IMG/VR virus record: IMGVR_UViG_3300028410_000746
Direction: 5' to 3' (one strand)
Length of the DNA: 64,000 bases
Source: a virus
Lineage: Duplodnaviria; Caudoviricetes
The translations under genes were made by a program, and so were the position numbers. Below the pieces are notes generated by a model. That model had not been told where the DNA came from. It made no database searches and saw only the letters and a program-made list of their open reading frames with translations. Shown in pieces: positions 1 to 50,386 of this stretch. Numbering within the stretch: the first letter of the stretch is position 1; each line of letters starts with the position of its first letter.

Positions 1-1484
1 CTGCGCGCGGAGAGGGTCAGGGACGTGGTACAGCGTGATCCATACCCGAAGCTGTGTGAGATGCCCTCCACGTAGTAGTACGCGTCCTTGCCCTCCACAT
101 AGACCGGGTACCCCAGGCGAAGCTCGGGTCGAAACGGGATCGTGACCGTGCCGCTGTTGATGCGCGCGTTCTGCTGATCCAGGATGTCGACGAGGTGGTA
201 GAAGAGCGCCTTGGGCCCTCCGTTCTCCTTGGACCCAATGAACTCGGAGCTGAACGCTCCTGGACGCCATCCGTACTTCTGGACGAGCCTGTAGTCGACG
301 TACGTAGCCTTGGTCTGTGCCAGGGAGGAGAGCCCGACCTCGACGTTCTGTGTGTAGCGTCCCGTGGCCTCCACGAAGGTCGCTTCCGGAGGGTTCTCCG
401 AAAAGTTCCAGGAGATCACGTCAACGTCTCGAATCCAACTCACGGGGAAATTCAGCCGGGTGTCCATGTTGAAGAACGGAGGCTTGAAGATGATCTCCCC
501 CGTGACGTCCATGTAGAACTCGTAGTTGATCGCCTCCTTGGTCTGCAAGGCGAGGTTGAGCTTGTTCTCGAACTCACTGTTCTCGATCTCTACCGCACCG
601 AGCTGACTCAGCTTCTGGCTGAAGGGGGCGATGGCGCTCACGTCGAAGAAGTCCTGCTTGAAGGGCTCGTAGTCCTTGAGCTTGGTAGCCTTGGCGGACC
701 CCTTGCGCTGGCGAAGGAAGAAGTCTCGGTTCTCGCCCGAGAGCACGCTCGCGAGCTGGCCACCCTGGAGGACGTTCCCGGAGGGGCCATACATCTTGAT
801 GTTCTGCGTGATCCGACCCCACTTGGCGCTCCAGTAGGCCATCATCCTCTTGGTGTCCGCTCCCGAGATCGGCTCGGTACGGGCTTCGCGGTTTGGGACC
901 GACTGATTACGCACGTTCATCGAGTCCCCATACACGTAGCGTGAGAGGCTGTAGATGATGTCGAAGGCGTTCATGCCCGTGAACGTGTGTCCTCGCAGGT
1001 TGACCTGTTGGGTCTGGTCCTTCAAGGTCGCCAGATACGACGGGTTGATGTTGATCTGCGAGACCTGCCACCAGTACAGGATGTCCGAACAGCTCAAGCT
1101 GACCGTCTGCTCGCCGGCCGAGTAGCTCTCCTGCAAGCTCGTGACGACGCCCCAGAAGATCGGGTAGTACCGTGGCGATCCGCCCACCGAGAAGTGACCC
1201 TTGGCGTAGATCTGGACCTCCATCATCGTGGTCAACGTGAGCTGACCCCCCACATAGATGTCACCCAGGTAATGTGCCGGGATGTGCAGGTCAATGGAGG
1301 CGCTGCCGGGCACCGAGTTGACCCCCAGGTTGACCGAGATCGTGTTGATCAACGGCTGCAAAGGCACGCGTCGGTTCGGGTTGGCTCCGCTTGGGAGGCT
1401 CAGCTCTCCGTTGATGTAGACCAGACAGTCTGGCGCCGTGGTGACGACGGGGCGGCGGTTTGGCTTGTAGGTCCCTTGGTACAC
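1..1484 (-). CDS. Baseplate hub / tail-associated protein (runs off left edge; absent from ORF track)
   Basis: Manual translation: GTG at 1484 after AAGGAG, open to position 1. C-terminal part reads NARINSGTVTIPFRPELRLGYPVYVEGKDAYYYVEGISHSFGYGSRCTTSLTL, typical of gp27/gpD-like hub folds. Confidence 0.65.
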   Translation of the reverse strand, partial: MYQGTYKPNRRPVVTTAPDCLVYINGELSLPSGANPNRRVPLQPLINTISVNLGVNSVPGSASIDLHIPAHYLGDIYVGGQLTLTTMMEVQIYAKGHFSVGGSPRYYPIFWGVVTSLQESYSAGEQTVSLSCSDILYWWQVSQININPSYLATLKDQTQQVNLRGHTFTGMNAFDIIYSLSRYVYGDSMNVRNQSVPNREARTEPISGADTKRMMAYWSAKWGRITQNIKMYGPSGNVLQGGQLASVLSGENRDFFLRQRKGSAKATKLKDYEPFKQDFFDVSAIAPFSQKLSQLGAVEIENSEFENKLNLALQTKEAINYEFYMDVTGEIIFKPPFFNMDTRLNFPVSWIRDVDVISWNFSENPPEATFVEATGRYTQNVEVGLSSLAQTKATYVDYRLVQKYGWRPGAFSSEFIGSKENGGPKALFYHLVDILDQQNARINSGTVTIPFRPELRLGYPVYVEGKDAYYYVEGISHSFGYGSRCTTSLTLSAR

Positions 1485-1542
1485 GCAGCACTCCTTGACG
1501 TGGGGTCCTTCACCCTGCGCACAAAAAGGTTAGGCATGGCGC

Positions 1543-1572
1543 TTGACACTCACGTTGCAGTTGCAGTATACC
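1543..1572 (+). promoter_or_regulatory. Sigma70-like promoter upstream of leader and solitary repeat
   Basis: TTGACA-N18-TATACC. Confidence 0.5.
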
Positions 1573-1610
1573 TTGAGACGTCAAGTGGGCGCGGTACCAC
1601 AGAGTAAGAG

Positions 1611-1703
1611 TTGGTAAAGTAAAACGGCGAACCTCATGCTAACAGGATTCCCCTTATGAATCAAGGAGTTAGGTACACTTCCGAAGGCTTGAACATTTGA
1701 AGA
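1611..1703 (+). promoter_or_regulatory. CRISPR leader copy (array-1 family)
   Basis: 77/93 nt identical, ungapped, to the reverse complement of 22491-22583; the last 36 nt are identical. Confidence 0.9.
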
Positions 1704-1732
1704 GTGTTCCCCGCGCGAGCGGGGAAGTTCCT
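1704..1732 (+). CRISPR. Solitary type I-E repeat
   Basis: GTGTTCCCCGCGCGAGCGGGGAAGTTCCT; 24/29 to the array-1 repeat, stem intact, no second repeat 32 nt downstream. Confidence 0.85.
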
Positions 1733-1772
1733 ACCTTCTACTACGACCACACCTTCTGTGGGGGATGAGACC

Positions 1773-1970
1773 ATGAAGATCAAGACACGGATTCAGCGAG
1801 ACGACAAGCCCACGGTCATCATCCGAATCGTCCGCACGGAAGATGGGACGGTCACGTGGCAGAGCAAGATAGCACGCACGGGTCGAATCATCGGCACCGG
1901 TACGTGCGATACGGTCGAAGATGCGCTCCTGGAATCGTCCAAGGGGATGTTCGAGGTCCCTGATTCATGA
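1773..1970 (+). CDS. Hypothetical protein (65 aa)
   Basis: ATG after GGGGA; stop overlaps next start (ATGA). Confidence 0.55.
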   Translation: MKIKTRIQRDDKPTVIIRIVRTEDGTVTWQSKIARTGRIIGTGTCDTVEDALLESSKGMFEVPDS

Positions 1971-2845
1971 GCTACTACAAGACCAAAGGTCGCTGCACGC
2001 TCCAGGTACAGAAGCACGGCGGCGTGTGGATGGCCGAGGTCGACGTCTCTCAGGAGCATGGTCCGATGGCCGAGCTGTGCTGTGCTCCGGCGACGTCCTA
2101 CACTCAGGCCGTCAAGATGGCCCACGCGGTGGAGAAGCAAGTAGAGGAGGGCTCACTCTTGCGCCTCCCCGAACAGGCGATTGAAGAGCACTACACCTCT
2201 TATCCCAAGCTGTACTATACGCGGTGGTGCGCCCTCTCTTGGATTCTGGGCTATTACGGTATGGATTGGCTCGACGGACAGAAGGTCTCAACCTGCGACC
2301 TTCACCCGGACGGGACGCAAGCGCTGGACCTCTACTCCGAAATCTCTGACGAGCTGGAGGGTCTTGAGCGGCGGGCCTTCGCGCCGTTGAAACACGATGA
2401 GCCTCTTGAAGACTATCTCTCCAGGTACTACAAGGAGGAACAGTTTCAAGCCTATAAGGCCGAGTCCAAGGCGTTCTTTGAGCGGCCTTACCCCCTCGAT
2501 GATACCGGCTACGCGGTTCATGACGCACATCTGCGAGACCTCGAAGTCCCTGACAACATCCACCCCAAGTGGTTGGAAGCCGTCCGTGAGCTGCTCATCA
2601 TCTGCGGCACGAGGTGCACGGAGACCTCGGCTCGGCTGTGGGCCGACGAACAGGGCAAGACACTCGAAGCTCGTTTCCCTACACGCTTCGAGCCCTTGAA
2701 CCTGGACATGACCTCTCACCCCACTCGGCCCGTGTTTTCGAGCTTCAGCTTGACGCAGAGGAGCGCGGAGAAGACGGCGAAGCTCTTGACCGCCAAAGAG
2801 CGTGAGCGTCTCCTTTGTGCCTATCCCAAGAGGTTCTCAGTATGA
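1967..2845 (+). CDS. Hypothetical protein (292 aa)
   Basis: Long ORF with ATGA overlaps at both ends. Confidence 0.75.
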   Translation: MSYYKTKGRCTLQVQKHGGVWMAEVDVSQEHGPMAELCCAPATSYTQAVKMAHAVEKQVEEGSLLRLPEQAIEEHYTSYPKLYYTRWCALSWILGYYGMDWLDGQKVSTCDLHPDGTQALDLYSEISDELEGLERRAFAPLKHDEPLEDYLSRYYKEEQFQAYKAESKAFFERPYPLDDTGYAVHDAHLRDLEVPDNIHPKWLEAVRELLIICGTRCTETSARLWADEQGKTLEARFPTRFEPLNLDMTSHPTRPVFSSFSLTQRSAEKTAKLLTAKERERLLCAYPKRFSV

Positions 2846-3102
2846 ACGAGTTGACCTACCTTAGAAGCGTTCTTGGAATCCTGGGAGCCTTTATGGCGGC
2901 CATGTTCTTCACGAGCTTCCTGATGTTGGCCTTGCCGGCTGAAGAGGACCTGACGGGGTGGCACTTTGTGTTCTACTTCTTCTCCTGGACCTGCATCTTC
3001 ATTGCGCGTGGTGCACGGGGAGTGGTCCTGTCACATCTGGTCGAGCTGGAAGCGGCCATGAAAGACCAGGGCGTCGATGCACCGGAAGACCTCGTGATGT
3101 GA
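2842..3102 (+). CDS. Small membrane protein with two hydrophobic segments
   Basis: ILGAFMAAMFFTSFLMLAL and WHFVFYFFSWTCIFIA segments; coupled start. Confidence 0.6.
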   Translation: MNELTYLRSVLGILGAFMAAMFFTSFLMLALPAEEDLTGWHFVFYFFSWTCIFIARGARGVVLSHLVELEAAMKDQGVDAPEDLVM

Positions 3103-3123
3103 GATTGTCTTTGTTCGCCGTGG

Positions 3124-5307
3124 TTGAAGAGACCTCAACCGTGGAGTCGTGCTGTGACCAGACGCTATGGAACCCCCCTCCCTCTCGGCCAGAAGCCCCT
3201 CAAGACCAAGATGGTGGGAGGCAAGGGCGCGTTGCGCTTCTCGTTGCGCATCGGTGAGATCACGCGGGTAGACTACGAGAGCATGGTCTGTGACATCTCC
3301 TGGATACAGGGTCGGTATCCGCCCTCTCTTGATGTCCCCTTGACCTCGGCCTACTGGTCGGCGCGTAGCTTCCTTGGAGTGATGCCAGAAGAGGGCGCGC
3401 TCGCTGTATGCGGCTTCAGCGCCGTGCACGAGAGTCAGGGCACCCGTCCCTATGTCCTGGCGTACATCCCCAATGGATACCGAACCGCCCTCGGGTTCCA
3501 ACCGTTCGGGGTCGCCCCTCGTAATGCTCCCGAACTCAACGCCCCTCTTGACGACATCCAACGTCAGCTCCAGGGTCAGTATGGCCCTACTCGCTACAAG
3601 ATGCGCAAGCTCTACGGTGGTGACGCCTACATGGCCTCCACGCATGGCGCCGAGCTTCTGGTGAACCGGGACGTCCGGCTCCTGGATGCTTCAGGTGGAG
3701 AGCTGTGGCTGCGAGGGGAAGACAGCTCACTGACCACGACCTCCCTGGACCATTACTCGACCACGGCAGCCGGCCGGTCCAGGACGGGTCGCATCTCTCG
3801 CGGAGCCCTGACTCTTCCTGCCGACGTCGAGAGTCGCCTCACGCCAGGGACCGAGCTGTTCGAGTACCTCCTGTCAGCCGGACTCGTCTTTGAGGACGGC
3901 GCGCTGGCCCCCGACATCAACCGCCTCCCTTATCTGGTGCTGGAGTCCGGGGAGCGTCTGACTCTGATCACGGACAACGGGGTCGACCCTTCCCTCCCAT
4001 CCTCGCGCGCCTTCACGGAGTCTCGTCACGAGATTCAGGAGTTCGATGCGGGCATCCTGGGACATCCCGATCACTACGGGTTTGACTCGGACCTCCTCGC
4101 CCCTTCGCCCAACTACGCCCCCTTCATTGAGCGGGTCCACGGCACCGTCGTGGGCAACGACCCCTACACCCTGCGAGGAAGGGCCCAATATGGCAGCCTC
4201 CTGCGTCCCTCGGTGTTCTCCAGCCCCTCAGCCACGACAGGCTCTCCAGGCCTGGAGGCGGTCGCCAACGACGCCGAGGAGACTCAGAAGTCCATGGTCG
4301 CTGCCAGCCTCTACCGTATGCGACGCCCTGATGGTCTCGGAGAGCTGTTCTTTGCTCATGACAAGGAAGGCCATGTCTACCTCTCTATCCCCGGCTCGAC
4401 CTCAAAGCCGGCCAGCCTTGGGGGCAACCGCAGCGTCGAAGCCGACATCAAGGGGTCCATCAAGGCCGTGCTCGGAGCCAACACGAACGATACGCAGTCC
4501 CTCGACCTCTTCGCGCGTGGTGGGTTCCTGTGGTCCCTGGGGACCCTCGCGTCGTCGCGACGCTCTCTTGATCTGACAGCTCGGGGAGGCATCAACATCA
4601 AGGTCGAGCGGCCCGACGTCAACGGGTACGCGATGCAATCTACCCTCAACGGAGACGTAGGGCTCTCCGCGCGCGGTTCGATGGGCGTGGCCCTGACGGG
4701 AGATCTTCTCGAAGACATCCAGGGGTTGCGCGAGACCAACGCGGAAGCGGTGAGCGTGAACGTTGGCGTGGGAGGCAAGACGGAGACGATTCAAGGTGAT
4801 CGCCAGTCGGTCGTCACAGGCAACGAGCAGCTCAAGATTGGACAGGGGCGTGACGTCACGATCACGGGACCCTCTCCTCAGAGTCCCTACGCAGACCGTC
4901 TGGAGATCCTCGCCGGGAGCCGGCTTGAGACCTTCGCAGGACCGGCCACCGACACGATCCAGTACCAGTCCGCCGCCACGAGGTCTATCGAAGCCACGGG
5001 GGCCCTCAACGCCACATGGTCCTCGGCCGGCGTGGGCACATACAGCTTCTCCTCCGCGTCAGGCTCGTTCGCCGTCAACGTCGGCACAGGTGCGATCTCG
5101 TTGAACGCGGGCGGCGCGGTCTCGATCAACTCGGGAGCTGCGATCACGATGGCGGCCTCCAACATCAACCTCACCGGCTCGGTTGGCCTGGGTACAGGTG
5201 CGGCGGCGGTCAACGCGGTCGTGGGCGGCGTCCCCGGTCCAAGCCCCTCCATCGACCCCTTGACGGGTATCCCCGCCACAGGTAACCCTCTCGTGCGTAC
5301 GGCTTGA
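3124..5307 (+). CDS. gp5/VgrG-like baseplate central spike protein (start uncertain)
   Basis: N-terminal OB-like region (GEITRVDYESMVCDI...GVMPEEGALAVCGF); C-terminal beta-repeat region (GDRQSVVTGNEQLKIGQGRDVTITG). Confidence 0.65.
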   Translation: MKRPQPWSRAVTRRYGTPLPLGQKPLKTKMVGGKGALRFSLRIGEITRVDYESMVCDISWIQGRYPPSLDVPLTSAYWSARSFLGVMPEEGALAVCGFSAVHESQGTRPYVLAYIPNGYRTALGFQPFGVAPRNAPELNAPLDDIQRQLQGQYGPTRYKMRKLYGGDAYMASTHGAELLVNRDVRLLDASGGELWLRGEDSSLTTTSLDHYSTTAAGRSRTGRISRGALTLPADVESRLTPGTELFEYLLSAGLVFEDGALAPDINRLPYLVLESGERLTLITDNGVDPSLPSSRAFTESRHEIQEFDAGILGHPDHYGFDSDLLAPSPNYAPFIERVHGTVVGNDPYTLRGRAQYGSLLRPSVFSSPSATTGSPGLEAVANDAEETQKSMVAASLYRMRRPDGLGELFFAHDKEGHVYLSIPGSTSKPASLGGNRSVEADIKGSIKAVLGANTNDTQSLDLFARGGFLWSLGTLASSRRSLDLTARGGINIKVERPDVNGYAMQSTLNGDVGLSARGSMGVALTGDLLEDIQGLRETNAEAVSVNVGVGGKTETIQGDRQSVVTGNEQLKIGQGRDVTITGPSPQSPYADRLEILAGSRLETFAGPATDTIQYQSAATRSIEATGALNATWSSAGVGTYSFSSASGSFAVNVGTGAISLNAGGAVSINSGAAITMAASNINLTGSVGLGTGAAAVNAVVGGVPGPSPSIDPLTGIPATGNPLVRTA

Positions 5308-7033: not shown

Positions 7034-7406
7034 TCTTCTTCGTCTCTGTTGTAGACTTCGTGGTACCACTCCTCAATGTCGAGGCTGAGCTTGGTCTGTC
7101 GGTAATACTCGAATTTACCTCGGGTTTCGGTCTCAAGCCATCCGCACATGCCGAGCAGGTCGCAGATATTTGTCAGCTCCTTGGAGAGCTTTGACACGGG
7201 GCCTAACTCCTCAAAGGTAATCTGCGTCAGGATGTGCCCGTAGACCAAGTACATGTGCATCTCGGTATTACGGAGGCGGCGCAGGATATACAGGGGGGTC
7301 CAGGTTATAGCAGCTATGCAGCACATCCCTGGAGTCCAGGTATGCCTCATGCTCGCTGATACGCGCTGATACGCGCTGATACTCTCTCTAGCTTCTTTTG
7401 GTTCAT
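7030..7406 (-). pseudogene. Frameshifted hypothetical gene
   Basis: GGAGG-ATG at 7406 hits an early stop after the 10-nt repeat GCTGATACGC x~3 (7355-7382); the downstream frame stays open to 7030. Confidence 0.5.
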
Positions 7407-7483: not shown

Positions 7484-8071
7484 ATGCCTGTGACACCACT
7501 ACAGCTCGTACCTGCGTTGACCTCTTCCCTGGCGAGCGTGGGGATTCAAGGGGTACGCGCGCCCGCGCTCGCGCAAGCTCTCTCCCAAGGTGTGATCGCC
7601 TCTCTGGCCGTCGCGCGGGTCGTGACGGCAGCAACAGGAGTCTCGGGAGTGGGCACCGGCAACGGCCGCATCTTGCTTGACCCCGTGTCGGGTATTGCCA
7701 CCCTCGCAGCGACTCTCTCTGCCCGTGGACTCAATGGATACTTGACACCGGGATTGGCTCAAGGCATCATCACAGGTATTGCGCTCACGCTCAATACGCA
7801 GGCAACCGTGGCGACTGTAACGCCTGGAGTCGCCACGGGAGTGGGTGTGGGCAGTTTGCAAGGTCTCAACCCGGCTACAATGGCTCCGCTATTTTTGGCC
7901 GGGTTGGCCAGCACAGGAATCATTGGACCCCAAGCCTCCGCCCTTGCGTCTGCCCTGGGTGAAGGCCTGTCGGTTTGGATGTCAACGGGCGTCGTCACTA
8001 CCGTCATCACCGGGGTACCCAGCGTACCTCCTATCGCCCTCGTCCTCGCCGGGACGGGTCAAATCTTCTGA
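7484..8071 (+). CDS. Gly/Ala-rich probable virion structural protein
   Basis: Internally repetitive LA(Q/P)ALxQG motifs; same strand as structural genes. Confidence 0.55.
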   Translation: MPVTPLQLVPALTSSLASVGIQGVRAPALAQALSQGVIASLAVARVVTAATGVSGVGTGNGRILLDPVSGIATLAATLSARGLNGYLTPGLAQGIITGIALTLNTQATVATVTPGVATGVGVGSLQGLNPATMAPLFLAGLASTGIIGPQASALASALGEGLSVWMSTGVVTTVITGVPSVPPIALVLAGTGQIF

Positions 8072-20491: not shown

Positions 20492-20532
20492 GTCGTCGTC
20501 TCCTGCGGTGTGTCGTTTCGTCTTACACACCC

Positions 20533-20561
20533 TATATACCACAAGGAGGGGGGGTCGTAAA
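20533..20561 (-). promoter_or_regulatory. Repeated phage promoter P2
   Basis: TTTACG-N17-TATATA with CTTGTGG. Confidence 0.8.
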
Positions 20562-20563
20562 AA

Positions 20564-21250
20564 CTATTCGACAGGTTCCACGCGACGGCGGTACTGGACT
20601 CCTCGGCGGTACTTCCCCCTTAAAGCCTTCAAGGGTGTGAGATCTTGGATGTGGTTGTAATCCAGGGATATCCATCCCGCCTTCACCATGCTTGCGAGAG
20701 GCTCCACGTCGTCGATGTGGTTCCCCCCAAGGTCGAGTTCCACCATCTCTACCATTCCCGCAAGGGGCGATACGTCCTCTATTTTATTGTCCGAGAGCGT
20801 CAGGTATTCAAGCTTGGTCAGCCCTGTGATCGGGCGGGAGATCTTCGATGGCATTTCTGTCCAGGGACGGATGCAGCATTCCGACCATCTGCGCGATAGG
20901 GGTGAGGTCTTTGATGTTCAGCTCCATCGCCTCCAACTCGACGACGTTCGTGAGGCCATGCAGCCGCGCGAAGTCCTCGGCTTCGTAGAGCGCCAAATCT
21001 GTTGTGATCTTGGGGCACAGCTCCTGGAGTTCAAAGGCGCGCTCGACCTTGCTGTGACATAAAACGGGTCTGGAGACCTTGAAGTCGAGTCCCATGACGT
21101 AGGGGAGCACCTGATCCGCGTAACGCGTCGGGTCCTCTTCCCTCATGCGGTACAGGATGTGGTACAAGTGCGGTGCCTCCACCGGGTTCCCGGAGTGCAG
21201 GAGGCTACGGAGGTCGTGAAAAGCTTCGGCTTGCAGGGTTCGTCTCGCGT
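20564..21250 (-). pseudogene. Internalin-like leucine-rich-repeat gene, frameshifted
   Basis: LRR units (LTNVVELEAMELNIKDLTPI; LTKLEYLTLSDNKIEDVSPL; VELDLGGNHIDDVEPL) split over two frames by a +1 near 20838; no clear start codon. Confidence 0.7.
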
Positions 21251-21898: not shown

Positions 21899-21938
21899 GG
21901 CTCGTCTCCTCTCGTGGCGTGTTGTTCCTTACACACAT

Positions 21939-21967
21939 CATATACCATAGGAAGCCTGGAGCGTAAA
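21939..21967 (-). promoter_or_regulatory. Repeated phage promoter P3
   Basis: TTTACG-N17-TATATG. Confidence 0.75.
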
Positions 21968-22034
21968 AACTATCTCAGTCTTCGAGGCTTCGAATGCCCA
22001 CGGTCTGGTAGGTCTCAAAGCCCACAACCTCTTC

Positions 22035-22490
22035 TGGGACATCCCCGCGTGCGCGGGGAACACGCTCCCCTTCGATACAGAGATCTTCTTTCTACCGGGA
22101 CATCCCCGCGCACGCGGGGAACACGGGTAGAACAAGAAGATGTATGAGAGGGGATCCGGGACATCCCCGCGCACGCGGGGAACACCGGACGAGCATGGGG
22201 AGACGTATTCGCCCTACCGGGACATCCCCGCGCACGCGGGGAACACTTGAAGCTGGAAGGATGCACGAGATGTGCGTGCGGGACATCCCCGCGCACGCGG
22301 GGAACACACAGGTGTGATCACAAGAGCATGTCGCCTCATCGGGACATCCCCGCGCACGCGGGGAACACGTCAAAGCTGGTCACCTTTGGAGCGTGAACGG
22401 CGGGACATCCCCGCGCACGCGGGGAACACCATGACACCGACACACCCGCACTTGGTGCATCCGGGACATCCCCGCGCACGCGGGGAACAC
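22035..22490 (-). CRISPR. CRISPR array 1, type I-E: 8 repeats, 7 spacers of 32 nt
   Basis: 29-nt repeat GTGTTCCCCGCGTGCGCGGGGATGTCCCG with a 61-nt period. Confidence 0.99.
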
Positions 22491-22583
22491 TCTTCAAATG
22501 TTCAAGCCTTCGGAAGTGTACCTAACCCCCTGTATTCGCTCAGGAATTCTGTTGGCATGGGGTACACCGTTTTACTTTACCAA
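22491..22583 (-). promoter_or_regulatory. Leader of array 1
   Basis: Begins TTGGTA and ends AGA before the first repeat; TTGTAC-N17-TAAAGT overlaps its start. Confidence 0.85.
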
Positions 22584-22609
22584 ATCGTACCCTGCGGTAC
22601 AAGCCTGAA

Positions 22610-24817
22610 TCAGGAGGCCTTCTTGGTGGGGGCGCGGTAGTAGGTGCGCGTCCACTCCATCTGCGTCTGAGAGCCCCAGGTGAGGAGGCTCAGGATGAGG
22701 TCGTTGGCGTCGGCACCCTGACCCTCAATGCGTCCGAGGACGTTGCGGAGCTGGCGCCAGTGGCCGTTCAAGGTGCCTCCCGAACACAGGCGCTCGAACG
22801 AGCGCTCCTTGATGTCACGAGACTGCGCGAGGACGCGCGCGACGGGGCGGTTGCCCTTGAAGCCGGTGGGCTTGAGGCCCGCGAGCAGGACCGCCAGGAG
22901 GAACACGCGCTCCTGCAACTCGGGGGCGTTCTCACCAAGGTTACGCTCCACCACCTTCTCCAGGGCCTTCTCCAGCAGGATGGCGGGGCGCATGTAGCGT
23001 ACGTCCTGGAGGTTCTTGGCGCGAGAGAGCGCGACGCGGCCGGAGCCCTTGTCGTGGTGGAGGTTGCGCCACCACTTGTGGACCACGGAGAGGATCTCAT
23101 CCTTGTGGGCGTATACGATGTTGTTCATGGGGTTCTTCTCTCTCTTGGTGGAGGTGCCGCAGAGTTTGAGGAGCTGCTTTTCGAGCCCGGCTCGTTCCCT
23201 CACGGCGGATGTGATGGTGCGGGTGTTCATGCGCGATTTGCGAGTGACACGGCCTCCAACGAGGGAGTCGAAGATCGTGAGCGCGGTGGTCGCGAGGAGG
23301 CGCTTGTAGGGCGTATAGACCATCTCCTCAAGCTCCTCCCGGTTGGTCGTGAGCTTGACCTTGGCGAGCGCGTCGTATGCAGCCTGTTCGGTGTGTGACC
23401 ACAGCTCGGAGTTGTTCCGGCCTCCCAGGCAGGCGACCTTCGCGCGGAGCACCTTATCCACCTCGGACGTGAGCTTGACCAGCGCCCCGAAGGTGTCCTC
23501 ATCACGCAGAGCCTGTGAGCCCTCGAAGATGAAGATGTACTTCTCGAAGAAGCTCACCGTCTTGCCCGCAAACATGTTGAATCCGAAGACACGCAGCGGG
23601 GGAAGCCCTCCCCATACCTCATCCCAATGCTCCGCGACCTCATCGTACAGGAAGGCCTTGCGCTTGGTGTGGGTGATGATTGGGGGCGTGTGGAGGGTCT
23701 CGGAGTAGGCGTGGGAACCCAGAACGTTCCACGTGCGCCTGTTGGTGACGGTCTGCACAGCGCGGACATCTTTCACATCTTTGGGGGTCCACTTGCCGTT
23801 GACGCCCATCGTCTTGAGGTTCTTGAGGGTGGTGGCGTTGTTGGGGAGCTGCCAGACACCCGACATGGGGATGCACTGACGAGACCCCGGCAGACCTTCC
23901 CACTTCTCGGACTGCGCTGTGTAGCGCTGCCGGTTGCCCCAGGGCTGCGCATCCACGTAGTCCAGGAGCCCGTCCTCATCCGGCTCCGGCAGGACCCACT
24001 CACGCGTGAGGTGCCAGAACGCGGTCAAGGGGTGGTAGTCCAGGTCGTGAGCGCGCCACCCCTCGATCTGACTCTCTTCGACCCAGGGGAACTCGAACTC
24101 GGGGACGGTCTCCTGTCCCCACAGAGCGTTGATTTCAGGTTCAGTGAGGATGTTGTTGAGGACCTCCTCGCAGAGGTCGCGGCCGCTGAAGACGTACCAC
24201 AGGCTGCCGTTGTTTCCGTAGCCGGGTCGCGATGTGCCACGTGAGAACTTGTTCCCCGCGTCCATGCGAAACTCGGCCGCCAGGATGAACGCGATGGCGT
24301 CCCCAGGCGTCAGACGCTGCCGGGGATCACGGCCCAAGTCCATGCTGAAGGGGAGCGGCCGCGTGACCTTCTCCGAGTCGAAGTCGAAGCCTGAGGAGGA
24401 GGACCCCAGCGCGTGCGTGTTGAAGCGGTAGCGGCCTATCTCAGTGGCGCACGGCAGGTCGGACTTCTTGATCTTTCTGATATCTTCGGTCCACTCGCGC
24501 AAGGCGGGCGTGGCCTGGAACGCACGGTACCCCGGCCCGTAGACGTCGAAGAAGTCTTCCTCACTCAGAAAGCGCTTCTTGAAGTCGAGGTTCTCGCCGC
24601 GCGTCAGGTGCATCTCGACCCACTCGTCGTCGTCCTTGGGCGCGGCCACCGTCTGGACCAGTGCCTGAATGAAGTGTCGGACGCCCTCATTCATTACGGA
24701 GTGGGGGTAGTCGAGCTTGAGGCCGGGTTCCGTGAACTCGTGCGGTCGGATGAGCTTGGACTTTCCCGTGGCGTCCTGAACCCGAATCCAAGCGTCGGTC
24801 ATGAGATTGAGTGACAT
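22610..24817 (-). CDS. cas8e-cas11: Cas8e (Cse1)-Cas11 (Cse2) fusion protein
   Basis: N-term MSLNLMTDAWIRV (Cse1-like). C-terminal ~170 aa WWRNL...GRVALSRA...ERSFERL...WRQLRNVL...DLILSLLTW...EWTRTYY (Cse2-like). No stop codon between them. Confidence 0.85.
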   Translation of the reverse strand: MSLNLMTDAWIRVQDATGKSKLIRPHEFTEPGLKLDYPHSVMNEGVRHFIQALVQTVAAPKDDDEWVEMHLTRGENLDFKKRFLSEEDFFDVYGPGYRAFQATPALREWTEDIRKIKKSDLPCATEIGRYRFNTHALGSSSSGFDFDSEKVTRPLPFSMDLGRDPRQRLTPGDAIAFILAAEFRMDAGNKFSRGTSRPGYGNNGSLWYVFSGRDLCEEVLNNILTEPEINALWGQETVPEFEFPWVEESQIEGWRAHDLDYHPLTAFWHLTREWVLPEPDEDGLLDYVDAQPWGNRQRYTAQSEKWEGLPGSRQCIPMSGVWQLPNNATTLKNLKTMGVNGKWTPKDVKDVRAVQTVTNRRTWNVLGSHAYSETLHTPPIITHTKRKAFLYDEVAEHWDEVWGGLPPLRVFGFNMFAGKTVSFFEKYIFIFEGSQALRDEDTFGALVKLTSEVDKVLRAKVACLGGRNNSELWSHTEQAAYDALAKVKLTTNREELEEMVYTPYKRLLATTALTIFDSLVGGRVTRKSRMNTRTITSAVRERAGLEKQLLKLCGTSTKREKNPMNNIVYAHKDEILSVVHKWWRNLHHDKGSGRVALSRAKNLQDVRYMRPAILLEKALEKVVERNLGENAPELQERVFLLAVLLAGLKPTGFKGNRPVARVLAQSRDIKERSFERLCSGGTLNGHWRQLRNVLGRIEGQGADANDLILSLLTWGSQTQMEWTRTYYRAPTKKAS

Positions 24818-44832: not shown

Positions 44833-44861
44833 CCTATACCACAAGGAGAGTTTGTCGTAAA
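44833..44861 (-). promoter_or_regulatory. Repeated phage promoter P6
   Basis: TTTACG-N17-TATAGG with CTTGTGG. Confidence 0.75.
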
Positions 44862-44868
44862 AACTTAC

Positions 44869-48869: not shown

Positions 48870-48933
48870 GGTATTCTCTCCCGTCGTGTTGCGCCGTTGG
48901 GGCGCGGTGTGTCTCGCTTCGTCTTACACACTC

Positions 48934-48962
48934 TATATACCACAAGGGTGGGGGACCGTAAA
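48934..48962 (-). promoter_or_regulatory. Repeated phage promoter P8
   Basis: TTTACG-N17-TATATA with CTTGTGG. Confidence 0.8.
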
Positions 48963-49169
48963 AACAAATGCACAAATCCCCCATACGATTGGCGTCGCAT
49001 GGGGGATTCCGGCTAGCCGGACGTGCGCCGTGTGGATTGCAGGATACTACGGCTCTTCCTGGCAAGATCACCCGACCCCGTGAGGGGAGGAAGGTTTCCG
49101 GCATACTAATACCGAATTCGGTCTCTTGCTGCGGGCGATACTGGCGCCTCCACCCGCTGGGCTGCTATC

Positions 49170-50031: not shown

Positions 50032-50073
50032 CTTATGCTCCCTTGTCGTGGTGTGTCGTTCTATCTTACCTCC

Positions 50074-50102
50074 TATATACCACAAGGACGTGAGGTCGTA
50101 AA
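50074..50102 (-). promoter_or_regulatory. Repeated phage promoter P9
   Basis: TTTACG-N17-TATATA with CTTGTGG. Confidence 0.8.
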
Positions 50103-50110
50103 AAGAATCT

Positions 50111-50386
50111 TCAAAGGAGGCGTGCGCGAAGCTCCTCAAGACAGAAGAGACGTCTTTGGGTCACCACTTCGGTCTGCGTAGCGTAGAAGGCCTTCTCCTG
50201 GGGCGGCACCTTGAGTACCAGCCGGGACGCGAACGCGTCGTCTGTGTAGCCTTGGGCGTCGAAGCGGATACCGCTGGAGTTGAACGTACCGTCTTCGCGT
50301 TGAGTGACGACGCGAAAGCATCCTGCGCCGTCGGCGTAGGTGGCTCCGTCTTCGAGCCGGAAGGATTCATCAGGGTAGAACTGCAT
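50111..50386 (-). CDS. Hypothetical protein
   Basis: GGAG-ATG. Confidence 0.55.
   Translation of the reverse strand: MQFYPDESFRLEDGATYADGAGCFRVVTQREDGTFNSSGIRFDAQGYTDDAFASRLVLKVPPQEKAFYATQTEVVTQRRLFCLEELRARLL

What the first reader, a model, noticed from the sequence alone, without database searches (positions are those of the whole stretch)
1543..3102. Leader plus a single repeat, 20 kb from the cas genes, heading a three-gene operon
Seen: a promoter, then a 93-nt leader 83% identical to the array-1 leader (last 36 nt identical), then one repeat with an intact stem but altered loop and 3' handle (AAGTTCCT vs ATGTCCCG), then three coupled ORFs starting 40 nt later. It sits between divergent baseplate genes. 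Established: solitary repeat units on MGEs can act as RNA anti-CRISPRs (Racr). Inference: possible roles are a Racr-like decoy against host I-E, a Cas6-gated 5' UTR controlling the operon, or an empty array ready to acquire spacers. A collapsed array is the null model.
Basis: partly seen in the sequence, partly recalled or inferred. Interest (0 to 1): 0.7.

Follow-up and report, generated by a model that had tools for sequence, protein, structure and literature searches.

The report
Spacer-less CRISPR array heading phage operon
A huge lake-water phage that carries its own CRISPR system has one extra copy of a CRISPR array's promoter box, leader and first repeat, with no spacers, just ahead of three unknown genes in its baseplate region; it is a real array-derived unit, but nothing yet shows that it does more than start and mark that transcript.

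Summary
Window 1594-1703 is a copy of the array-1 leader (95 of 108 aligned bases identical, E 2.7e-38). The identical run is 48 nt long and reaches into the repeat. One type I-E repeat follows at 1704-1732, and three translationally coupled ORFs start 40 nt later.

New findings:
- The unit also carries the promoter-like box found upstream of all five "family A" arrays of the only CRISPR-bearing relative, a 437-kb phage. Array 1 of this genome lacks that box. The unit is therefore a complete array module without spacers.
- It lies beside a lineage-specific rearrangement. In all 19 relatives the 1242-aa upstream gene points the same way as the gp5-like spike gene and directly precedes it. Here that single gene is inverted.
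- No relative has a CRISPR element at this site. ORF2 has only two weak relatives.
- The repeat's 3' handle (AAG instead of AUG) resembles a decayed terminal repeat. Its hairpin core equals the commonest bacterial I-E core.
- The sequence after the repeat has no target in either phage.

Best reading: an emptied or never-filled array module that now serves as promoter and Cas6e-cuttable 5' leader. No RNA data exist. This scan has noted similar lone repeats in mRNA leaders of other cas-bearing phages.

The parts
1..1484 (-). N-terminal part of a 1242-aa tail/baseplate-module protein (P0004). The gene runs on beyond the window start. It is inverted here relative to all 19 relatives.
1543..1572 (+). 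Promoter-like box: TTGACA, 18 nt, TATACC (or TACCTT at 20 nt). It is homologous to the box upstream of the five family-A arrays of the relative G001.
   Evidence: not called by the consensus scan
1594..1703 (+). CRISPR leader, family A. 95 of 108 aligned positions are identical to the array-1 leader; the last 36 nt are identical.
1704..1732 (+). Single type I-E repeat (GTGTT, stem CCCCGC/GCGGGG, loop GCGA, 3' part AAGTTCCT). The expected Cas6e cut lies between 1724 and 1725, by analogy with E. coli Cas6e.
1733..1772 (+). 40-nt stretch between repeat and start codon: small hairpin 1747-1761, then a G-rich ribosome-binding site. It is not a spacer with any detectable target.
1773..1970 (+). ORF1, 65 aa, no known family.
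1967..2845 (+). ORF2, 292 aa. Only two weak relatives are known, in unrelated phage contigs. The N-terminal 63 aa are predicted as a three-strand sheet plus helix.
2842..3102 (+). ORF3, 86 aa, hydrophobic (two likely membrane helices, judged by eye). It sits where G001 has an 80-aa membrane ORF upstream of the spike gene.
3154..5307 (+). gp5/gpV-like baseplate spike gene (717 aa). Same strand, 51 nt after ORF3, no terminator found between them.
22035..22600 (-). Array 1 (8 repeats, 22035-22490) and its leader (22491-22600), the paralogue of the solitary unit. The leader starts right after the cas8e-cas11 stop codon and lacks the promoter box.

Best explanation
The unit is a spacer-less copy of the phage's own 'family A' CRISPR array module: promoter box, about 110 nt of leader, and one repeat. 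In this phage lineage such modules and arrays appear at different places in different genomes, and arrays shrink to bare repeats. This copy either lost its spacers or never gained any. It lies in a lineage-specific stretch between an inverted baseplate-module gene and the gp5-like spike gene.

Inferred, not shown: transcription from the conserved box runs through leader and repeat into ORF1-3, and probably on into the spike gene. The repeat hairpin then sits in the 5' untranslated region. The phage's Cas6e would cut after G1724. That cut would release the leader with the hairpin and leave an mRNA that starts with AAGUUCCU, 48 nt before the ORF1 start codon. The unit would thus act as the promoter and processed 5' leader of this operon. 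Whether the cut changes expression is unknown.
For: - Leader paralogy with array 1 is beyond chance: E 2.7e-38, 95 of 108 identical.
- The promoter-like box is shared with all five family-A arrays of G001, a genome only about 70% identical in DNA. Array 1 of this genome lacks it.
- The repeat stem is intact and folds stably.
- The phage encodes Cas6e, Cas7, Cas5, Cas8e-Cas11 and Cas3.
- ORF1-3 are coupled by ATGA overlaps, have native GC3, and start 40 nt after the repeat. No terminator was predicted between 1300 and 3400, and the spike gene follows 51 nt after ORF3.
- The last 8 nt of the repeat are degenerate in the same way as terminal repeats of arrays in both phages. The best internal match of its 3' half is the terminal repeat of array A0, 13 of 14.
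- Bare repeats occur elsewhere. This genome has a repeat-like hairpin between cas7 and cas6e, where G001 has arrays. G001 has a promoter-leader-single-repeat-terminator unit, and lone repeats beside tRNA genes.
- Array positions are not conserved between the two phages.
Against: - There is no RNA evidence at all.
- The second promoter hexamer lacks the conserved final T, and the consensus scanner does not call the site.
- The whole 5' region is not unusually structured (z +0.74), and alternative pairings compete with the repeat hairpin.
- The U-to-A change next to the cut site lengthens the stem by one pair and might hinder Cas6e (inference).
- No relative carries this locus, so conservation cannot be tested.
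- Intactness of the stem and of the -35 hexamer is not statistically distinguishable from neutral survival (own arithmetic).
Confidence: 0.5

Rival explanations
1. Inert remnant. An array that once stood here collapsed by recombination between its first and last repeats. The leftover is silent or has no effect, and ORF1-3 and the spike gene are expressed from other (late) promoters.
For: - The repeat looks chimeric. Its 5' 12 nt and the adjacent 36 leader nt are identical to array 1, while its 3' end resembles a decayed terminal repeat.
- Array collapse is seen elsewhere in this genome.
- The weak second hexamer is not called by the scanner.
- No statistical sign of selection on the hairpin.
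Against: - The distal leader is about 18% diverged from array 1, yet a perfect TTGACA and the box shared with G001 arrays persist.
- No other promoter-like site was found between 1300 and 3400, and after the inversion the operon has no upstream co-oriented gene to read in from.
- No relative shows an array at this site.
Confidence: 0.25
2. Racr-like RNA decoy. The leader-plus-hairpin RNA binds the Cas6e and Cas7 of a host or of a competing phage and blocks their type I-E immunity. ORF1-3 might be accompanying anti-defence genes.
For: - It is a solitary repeat behind a promoter-like site on a phage, as described for viral solitary repeat units (PMC10651486).
- The hairpin core (19 nt) is identical to the commonest bacterial I-E repeat core, found in at least 120 genome stretches of many phyla. 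The nearest bacterial repeats match 27 of 29, against 24 of 29 for the phage's own array 1.
- It is followed by small genes of unknown function.
Against: - The unit is a paralogue of the phage's own array leader, so no host mimicry is needed to explain it.
- The phage's own Cas6e and Cascade would be titrated as well.
- No terminator defines a small RNA.
- Loops vary freely among this lineage's repeats, so a GCGA loop may be one variant among many.
- The host is unknown.
- ORF1-3 match no defence or anti-defence models searched.
Confidence: 0.1
3. Functional empty array. Leader plus one repeat is kept as an acceptor for new spacers, added in trans by a host Cas1-Cas2, since the phage has none in the sequence seen.
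For: - The leader-proximal 36 nt and the first 12 repeat nt are identical to those of an active-looking array. Given 13 of 72 differences further upstream, the chance of this is about 7e-5 under uniform divergence.
- The last 15 leader nt are also kept in G001.
- A leader with a single repeat suffices for acquisition in E. coli (own knowledge, not checked here).
Against: - The same identity is explained by recent gene conversion between the two copies, because positions -36 to -17 are not conserved in G001.
- Contigs from four lake samples show the same sequence and no expanded form.
- New spacers would lengthen the 5' leader of an operon in the baseplate module.
- No cas1 or cas2 was looked for or found by me.
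Confidence: 0.1
4. Guide-like regulatory RNA. After the cut, AAGUUCCU plus the next 32 nt acts as a crRNA-like guide that directs Cascade to a partly matching promoter, like CreR/CreA or viral crRNA-like RNAs.
For: The layout, a repeat followed by unique sequence, resembles single-repeat units discussed in PMC10120712 and in bioRxiv 10.1101/2024.10.29.618823.
Against: - There is no second repeat or terminator hairpin to end the guide.
- The handle departs from the AUG start seen in the array repeats of both phages (their degenerate terminal repeats excepted).
- The best match of the 32 nt elsewhere in the 125-kb record or in G001 has 10 or more mismatches. Seed matches number 8, against 15 expected by chance.
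Confidence: 0.03

Closest known systems
Viral solitary repeat units (SRUs) and RNA anti-CRISPRs (Racrs), Camara-Wilpert et al. 2023 (PMC10651486)
   Same: A single CRISPR repeat on a phage, outside any array, behind a promoter-like site, with an intact Cas6-type hairpin.
   Different: SRUs are described as not associated with cas genes and as mimics of host repeats, and RacrIF1 is a small non-coding RNA. This unit copies the leader of the phage's own array, the phage has its own I-E cas genes, no terminator is seen, and a coding operon starts 40 nt later. No inhibition has been tested.
Standalone repeats, SRUs and mini-arrays in CRISPR-cas loci, Shmakov et al. 2023 (PMC10120712)
   Same: An ectopic repeat nearly identical to array repeats in a genome with an active-looking system. 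That paper also notes dynamic gain and loss of ectopic repeats.
   Different: Those elements lie inside cas loci, and many have a spacer partly complementary to a cas or cargo promoter. This one is 20.8 kb from the cas genes, in a structural-gene module, and has no detectable target.
Viral crRNA-like regulatory RNAs (Cracr), bioRxiv 10.1101/2024.10.29.618823
   Same: Phage-borne repeat-derived RNA units, some for type I-E.
   Different: [quoted passage not shown] Neither feature is present or testable here.
Minimal CRISPR array (leader plus one repeat) used as acquisition substrate in E. coli type I-E
   Same: Leader plus a single repeat with an intact leader-repeat junction.
   Different: No Cas1-Cas2 is known on this phage, and the unit is fused to an operon.
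Engineered Cas6/Csy4 cleavage sites in 5' untranslated regions used to insulate gene expression
   Same: A Cas6-type hairpin between promoter and ribosome-binding site, with the cognate endoribonuclease encoded in the same genome.
   Different: That is a synthetic design. Natural use for non-CRISPR genes is not established here.

Membership tests
Type I-E CRISPR repeat (Cas6e substrate) | 29-nt unit with a G+C stem of 6-7 pairs, a 4-nt loop and a 5' GTGTT-type flank | tested here: met
   The first 22 nt are identical to the commonest bacterial I-E repeat form. The hairpin folds at -17.1 kcal/mol.
Type I-E CRISPR repeat (Cas6e substrate) | 8-nt 3' part (the future 5' handle) of the AUxxxCCx type | tested here: not met
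   The unit has AAGTTCCT. The array repeats of both phages (apart from their degenerate terminal repeats) and the common bacterial repeats retrieved start this part with AT.
Type I-E CRISPR repeat (Cas6e substrate) | Cleavage by Cas6e | not testable with these tools
   Needs an enzyme assay or RNA 5'-end data. No RNA run was listed.
CRISPR array | Leader homologous to that of a working array | tested here: met
   95 of 108 identical to the array-1 leader, and the promoter box is shared with G001 family-A arrays.
CRISPR array | Two or more repeats separated by spacers | tested here: not met
   No repeat-like sequence lies at 61-nt spacing or anywhere nearby.
Viral SRU / Racr | Solitary repeat on a mobile element with a promoter upstream | tested here: met
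   Single repeat. A promoter-like box lies 160 nt upstream and is conserved in a relative's arrays. The box is not called by the consensus scan.
Viral SRU / Racr | Element lacks its own cas genes and mimics the host's repeat | tested here: not met
   The phage has a full I-E interference set 20.8 kb away. The leader is the phage's own. The host repeat is unknown.
Viral SRU / Racr | [quoted passage not shown] | tested here: inconclusive
   No terminator is predicted and an ORF starts 40 nt later. No RNA data exist.
Viral SRU / Racr | Inhibits CRISPR interference by sequestering Cas6/Cas7 | not testable with these tools
   Needs a phage or plasmid challenge assay.
crRNA-like regulators (CreR/CreA, Cracr) | Spacer-like part with PAM-proximal pairing to a promoter | tested here: not met
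   No such match exists in the 125-kb record or in G001. The host and the remaining 248 kb of the phage were not searched.
Tyrosine recombinase (considered for ORF2) | Match to the catalytic-domain profile PF00589 | tested here: not met
   No Pfam hit at E up to 5 for the protein, and no PF00589 hit at E up to 10 in the record, while the control genomes all hit. The only support is language-model similarity of 0.93 with a low count of shared features.

The most novel reading that the evidence does not exclude
The phage uses its own Cas6e, and perhaps Cascade subunits, as a post-transcriptional control device for ordinary genes. A CRISPR repeat placed in the 5' leader of the ORF1-3/spike operon is cut or bound, so that expression of these genes is tied to the level of the phage's Cas proteins. 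Lone repeats inside the cas mRNA of this phage and beside tRNA genes of its 437-kb relative would belong to the same habit.
Probability: 0.2. Interest if true: 0.75.

Novelty: new member of a known kind. Interest (0 to 1): 0.4.

Why it matters
If the unit is only a spacer-less array, it documents how freely array modules (promoter, leader, repeat) move, empty and decay in huge phages that carry CRISPR systems without acquisition genes. It also shows that such a module can end up as the head of a structural-gene operon after a rearrangement.

If Cas6e cutting affects expression, it would be a natural case of a CRISPR RNA-processing enzyme controlling non-CRISPR genes, something so far known mainly from engineered constructs. 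The cloned 300-nt region plus the phage cas6e gene would make this directly testable.

Tried and rejected
- RNA evidence: no RNA holder was listed for window 1400-3300.
- Contigs from four lake-water runs: they cover the locus or small parts of it at 100% identity. They show no alternative joint and no expanded array. Breaks at 1696/1697 are due to the 48-nt run shared with array 1.
- Relatives carrying this locus: ORF2 was not found in viral contigs or metagenome contigs. Word-indexed and exhaustive protein searches give only the protein itself plus two weak relatives, at E 2e-5 and 6.5e-4, in unrelated phage contigs. The leader-repeat junction 22-mer occurs only in this genome and G001.
- ORF2 as an integrase: suggested by the atlas features, but there is no Pfam or PDB sequence match. 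The AlphaFold models are poor, pLDDT 39 and 43. Fold matches of the N-terminal 63 aa to AP2/ERF-type domains, at Z 6.5-7, lie within the noise range. This was kept as a lead only.
- ORF1-3: no match against PHROGs or PADLOC.
- Target search for the 32 nt after the repeat: nothing found. The same holds for the single-repeat unit of G001.
- Rfam: no hit in 1400-3300.
- Inverted repeats flanking the inverted gene: none longer than 9 nt, so neither misassembly nor simple homologous inversion is indicated.
- My crude script for terminators and ORFs after arrays missed a known terminator, so its results were discarded.
- Five other relatives' records have no I-E-type repeats.

Full report
**What the window is.** The window lies in a 125,429-base virus record. 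That record corresponds to the last third of a 373,477-base metagenome contig from lake water. On the minus strand at 22.6-30.6 kb it encodes Cas3, Cas7, Cas6e, Cas5 and a long Cse1-family protein. The 125-kb record holds five arrays of I-E-type repeats. The closest relative I could find is a complete 437,490-base phage with terminal repeats, G001. It is collinear with this record at about 65-85% DNA identity.

**The observation.**
- The solitary repeat is at 1704-1732. It shares 24 of 29 bases with the array-1 repeat.
- The stem is intact. The loop is GCGA instead of GTGC, and the last eight bases are AAGTTCCT instead of ATGTCCCG.
- On its own it folds into an 8-bp hairpin at -17.1 kcal/mol, z -3.6. 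The T-to-A change in the last eight bases adds one pair.
- Upstream, 1594-1703 aligns with the array-1 leader at 95 of 108 positions. The last 36 leader bases and the first 12 repeat bases are identical. A search of the record gives E 2.7e-38.
- With 13 differences in the first 72 aligned positions, a 48-base identical run has a chance of about 7e-5 under uniform divergence. The proximal part has therefore been homogenised recently or is constrained. Positions -36 to -17 differ in G001, so I favour recent gene conversion or recombination between the two copies.

**The unit is a complete array module.** G001 has at least twelve arrays and two leader families.
- The five family-A leaders of G001 end in the same 15 bases as the leader here.
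- All five are preceded by CTTGACA, about 18 bases, then TTGCGGTACCTT.
- The solitary unit has the homologous CTTGACA ... TTGCAGTATACCTT.
- Array 1 of this genome lacks that box. Its homology starts right after the stop codon of the cas8e-cas11 gene.
- The consensus scanner did not call the site as a promoter, because the second hexamer ends in C. Promoter function is therefore inferred from conservation, not shown.

**Genes downstream.** ORF1 (65 aa), ORF2 (292 aa) and ORF3 (86 aa, hydrophobic) overlap by ATGA. Their GC3 of 0.72-0.75 matches the next gene (0.76), and they were called on two other assemblies. No terminator-like site was found between 1300 and 3400. A 717-aa gene follows 51 nt after ORF3. 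Its language-model features match gp5 OB-fold and baseplate gpV families (0.94-0.95, 183-196 shared features).

ORF1-3 have no Pfam, PHROG or PADLOC match. ORF2 has only two weak relatives among 1.8 billion representatives, in accessory regions of unrelated phage contigs. An integrase-like hint from the atlas failed the Pfam test. The structure models were too poor to decide.

**Context: a single-gene inversion.** The gene upstream on the minus strand encodes a 1242-aa protein with only a faint SLT hit. In all 19 related loci, down to 26% identity, its homologue is on the same strand as the gp5-like gene and directly upstream of it, with zero to two small ORFs between. Here that one gene is inverted, and the flanks are collinear with G001.
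- On its 3' side lie array A0 and a 108-aa ORF (record 22767-23416 and 23469-23795).
- On its 5' side lies the solitary module.
- One 4,475-base contig of another assembly spans both junctions.
- No inverted repeat longer than 9 nt flanks the gene, so this is not a misassembly.
- G001 has a 146-aa ORF and an 80-aa membrane ORF at this place and no CRISPR element. ORF3 may be the counterpart of the latter, but only at E 0.027.

After the inversion, the ORF1-3/spike operon has no co-oriented gene upstream. That makes a promoter in the 288-nt gap necessary (inference).

**Collapsed, seeded or in use?**
- The 3' end of the repeat looks like a terminal repeat. In G001 the terminal repeats of the family-A arrays keep the stem but have degenerate last eight bases. 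The best internal match for the solitary repeat's 3' half is the terminal repeat of A0, 13 of 14.
- Bare repeats occur elsewhere. There is a repeat-like hairpin between cas7 and cas6e here, where G001 has arrays. G001 has a unit of promoter, leader, one repeat, 34 nt and a terminator. G001 also has lone repeats next to tRNA genes.
- Array positions are not conserved between the two phages outside the cas region.
- All this fits a lineage in which array modules move and empty. It does not tell whether this copy lost spacers or never had any. No relative has a CRISPR element here, and the same sequence without variants is seen in four lake samples.

**Tests of the other readings.**
- Decoy: the 19-nt hairpin core is identical to the commonest bacterial I-E repeat core. 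It occurs in at least 120 genome stretches across many phyla, and the nearest full repeats match 27 of 29. A host Cas6e could therefore bind it. However, loops vary freely among this lineage's own repeats, the leader is the phage's own, the phage has its own Cas6e, and no small-RNA terminator is present.
- Guide: the 32 nt after the repeat have no target in the record or in G001.
- Structure: the 221-nt 5' region is not unusually stable (z +0.74).
- Rfam: nothing found.
- RNA data: none exist.

**Mechanism proposed.**
- Shown: the anatomy and the paralogy.
- Inferred: transcription from the box near 1543-1572 starts at about 1579 and runs through leader and repeat into ORF1-3 and probably the spike gene. 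Cas6e cuts between 1724 and 1725, by analogy with E. coli Cas6e (my own knowledge). It keeps the leader-hairpin fragment and leaves an mRNA with a 48-nt leader that begins AAGUUCCU.
- Open: whether this stabilises, represses or does nothing.

I give about 0.5 to this reading as a whole. Derivation from the phage's own array module I put at about 0.9.

**Comparison with what is known.** Solitary repeat units on viruses and Racrs (PMC10651486), standalone repeats in cas loci (PMC10120712) and viral crRNA-like RNAs (bioRxiv 10.1101/2024.10.29.618823) are the nearest kinds. This unit shares the single repeat behind a promoter-like site. It fails or cannot be tested on the features that define a Racr or a crRNA-like regulator. 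It is best filed as a leader-bearing solitary repeat, or spacer-less array, of a phage-borne I-E system.

Notes from this scan report similar lone repeats in mRNA leaders of phages that carry Cas12-type or CasPhi effectors. Those are unchecked leads, not support.

Noticed in passing
window 1-1484 and upstream (record G000:C1:23804-27532): The 1242-aa tail/baseplate-module gene is inverted as a single gene relative to all 19 relatives found. In those relatives it directly precedes the gp5-like gene on the same strand. Both junctions carry CRISPR elements: array A0 plus a 108-aa ORF on one side, the solitary module on the other. No flanking inverted repeat longer than 9 nt was found.
   Followed up: partly
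L035:213-241, 3514-3542, 7051-7079, 7167-7195, 7666-7694 (G001 120-128 kb), minus strand: The 437-kb relative has near-perfect lone I-E repeats inside its tRNA gene cluster, 33-41 nt from tRNA ends. One has its own TTGACA box about 100 nt upstream of a CUA-anticodon (amber-reading) tRNA. This suggests Cas6e sites in tRNA operon transcripts.
   Followed up: partly
L049:4935-5125, minus strand (G001 404935-405125): A stand-alone unit of promoter box, about 75-nt leader, one repeat, 34 nt and a strong intrinsic terminator, which would give a crRNA-like small RNA with a terminator hairpin in place of the second repeat. Its 32-nt guide-like part has no match in either phage.
   Followed up: partly
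G000:C1:22767-23416 (2.6 kb before the window start): Array A0 is composite. Six repeats ending ATGTCCCC are followed by a junction at 23128-23177, where a repeat abuts a partial repeat with no spacer. Then come repeats ending ATGTTCCC and a terminal repeat ending ATGTTCCT. A 108-aa co-oriented ORF starts 52 nt after the terminal repeat.
   Followed up: no
window 22491-22600 and the other array leaders; G001 arrays: Arrays of both phages fall into two leader families. Family A ends ...GAACATTTGAAGA before the repeat. Family B ends ...GTGACAAGATGTCTCAGA or a similar sequence. Array positions are not conserved between the phages.
   Followed up: partly
window 1704-1772: The frame of ORF1 is open upstream to a GTG that is the first codon of the repeat itself (an 88-aa ORF, 1704-1970). 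The gene callers use the ATG at 1773, which has a G-rich ribosome-binding site. The open frame is probably coincidental.
   Followed up: no
window 20508-20573, 21914-21979, 44835-44865, 48909-48974, 50049-50114: A dispersed direct-repeat family of about 66 nt (TATACCACAAGGAG ... CGTAAAAAC), all on the plus strand; whether the copies lie between genes was not checked. It may be a phage promoter or start-region motif. G001 has ACCACAAGGAG before an ORF as well.
   Followed up: no
window 1967-2845 (ORF2) and 1773-1970 (ORF1): ORF2 begins with a predicted three-strand sheet plus helix (residues 1-63, pLDDT about 70). This resembles AP2/ERF-type and integrase arm-type DNA-binding domains, at Z values in the noise range. 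By eye, ORF1 has a similar strand-strand-strand-helix pattern. Both may be DNA-binding proteins.
   Followed up: partly
window 19681 and 19698: The window and the laid genome record differ at two bases.
   Followed up: no
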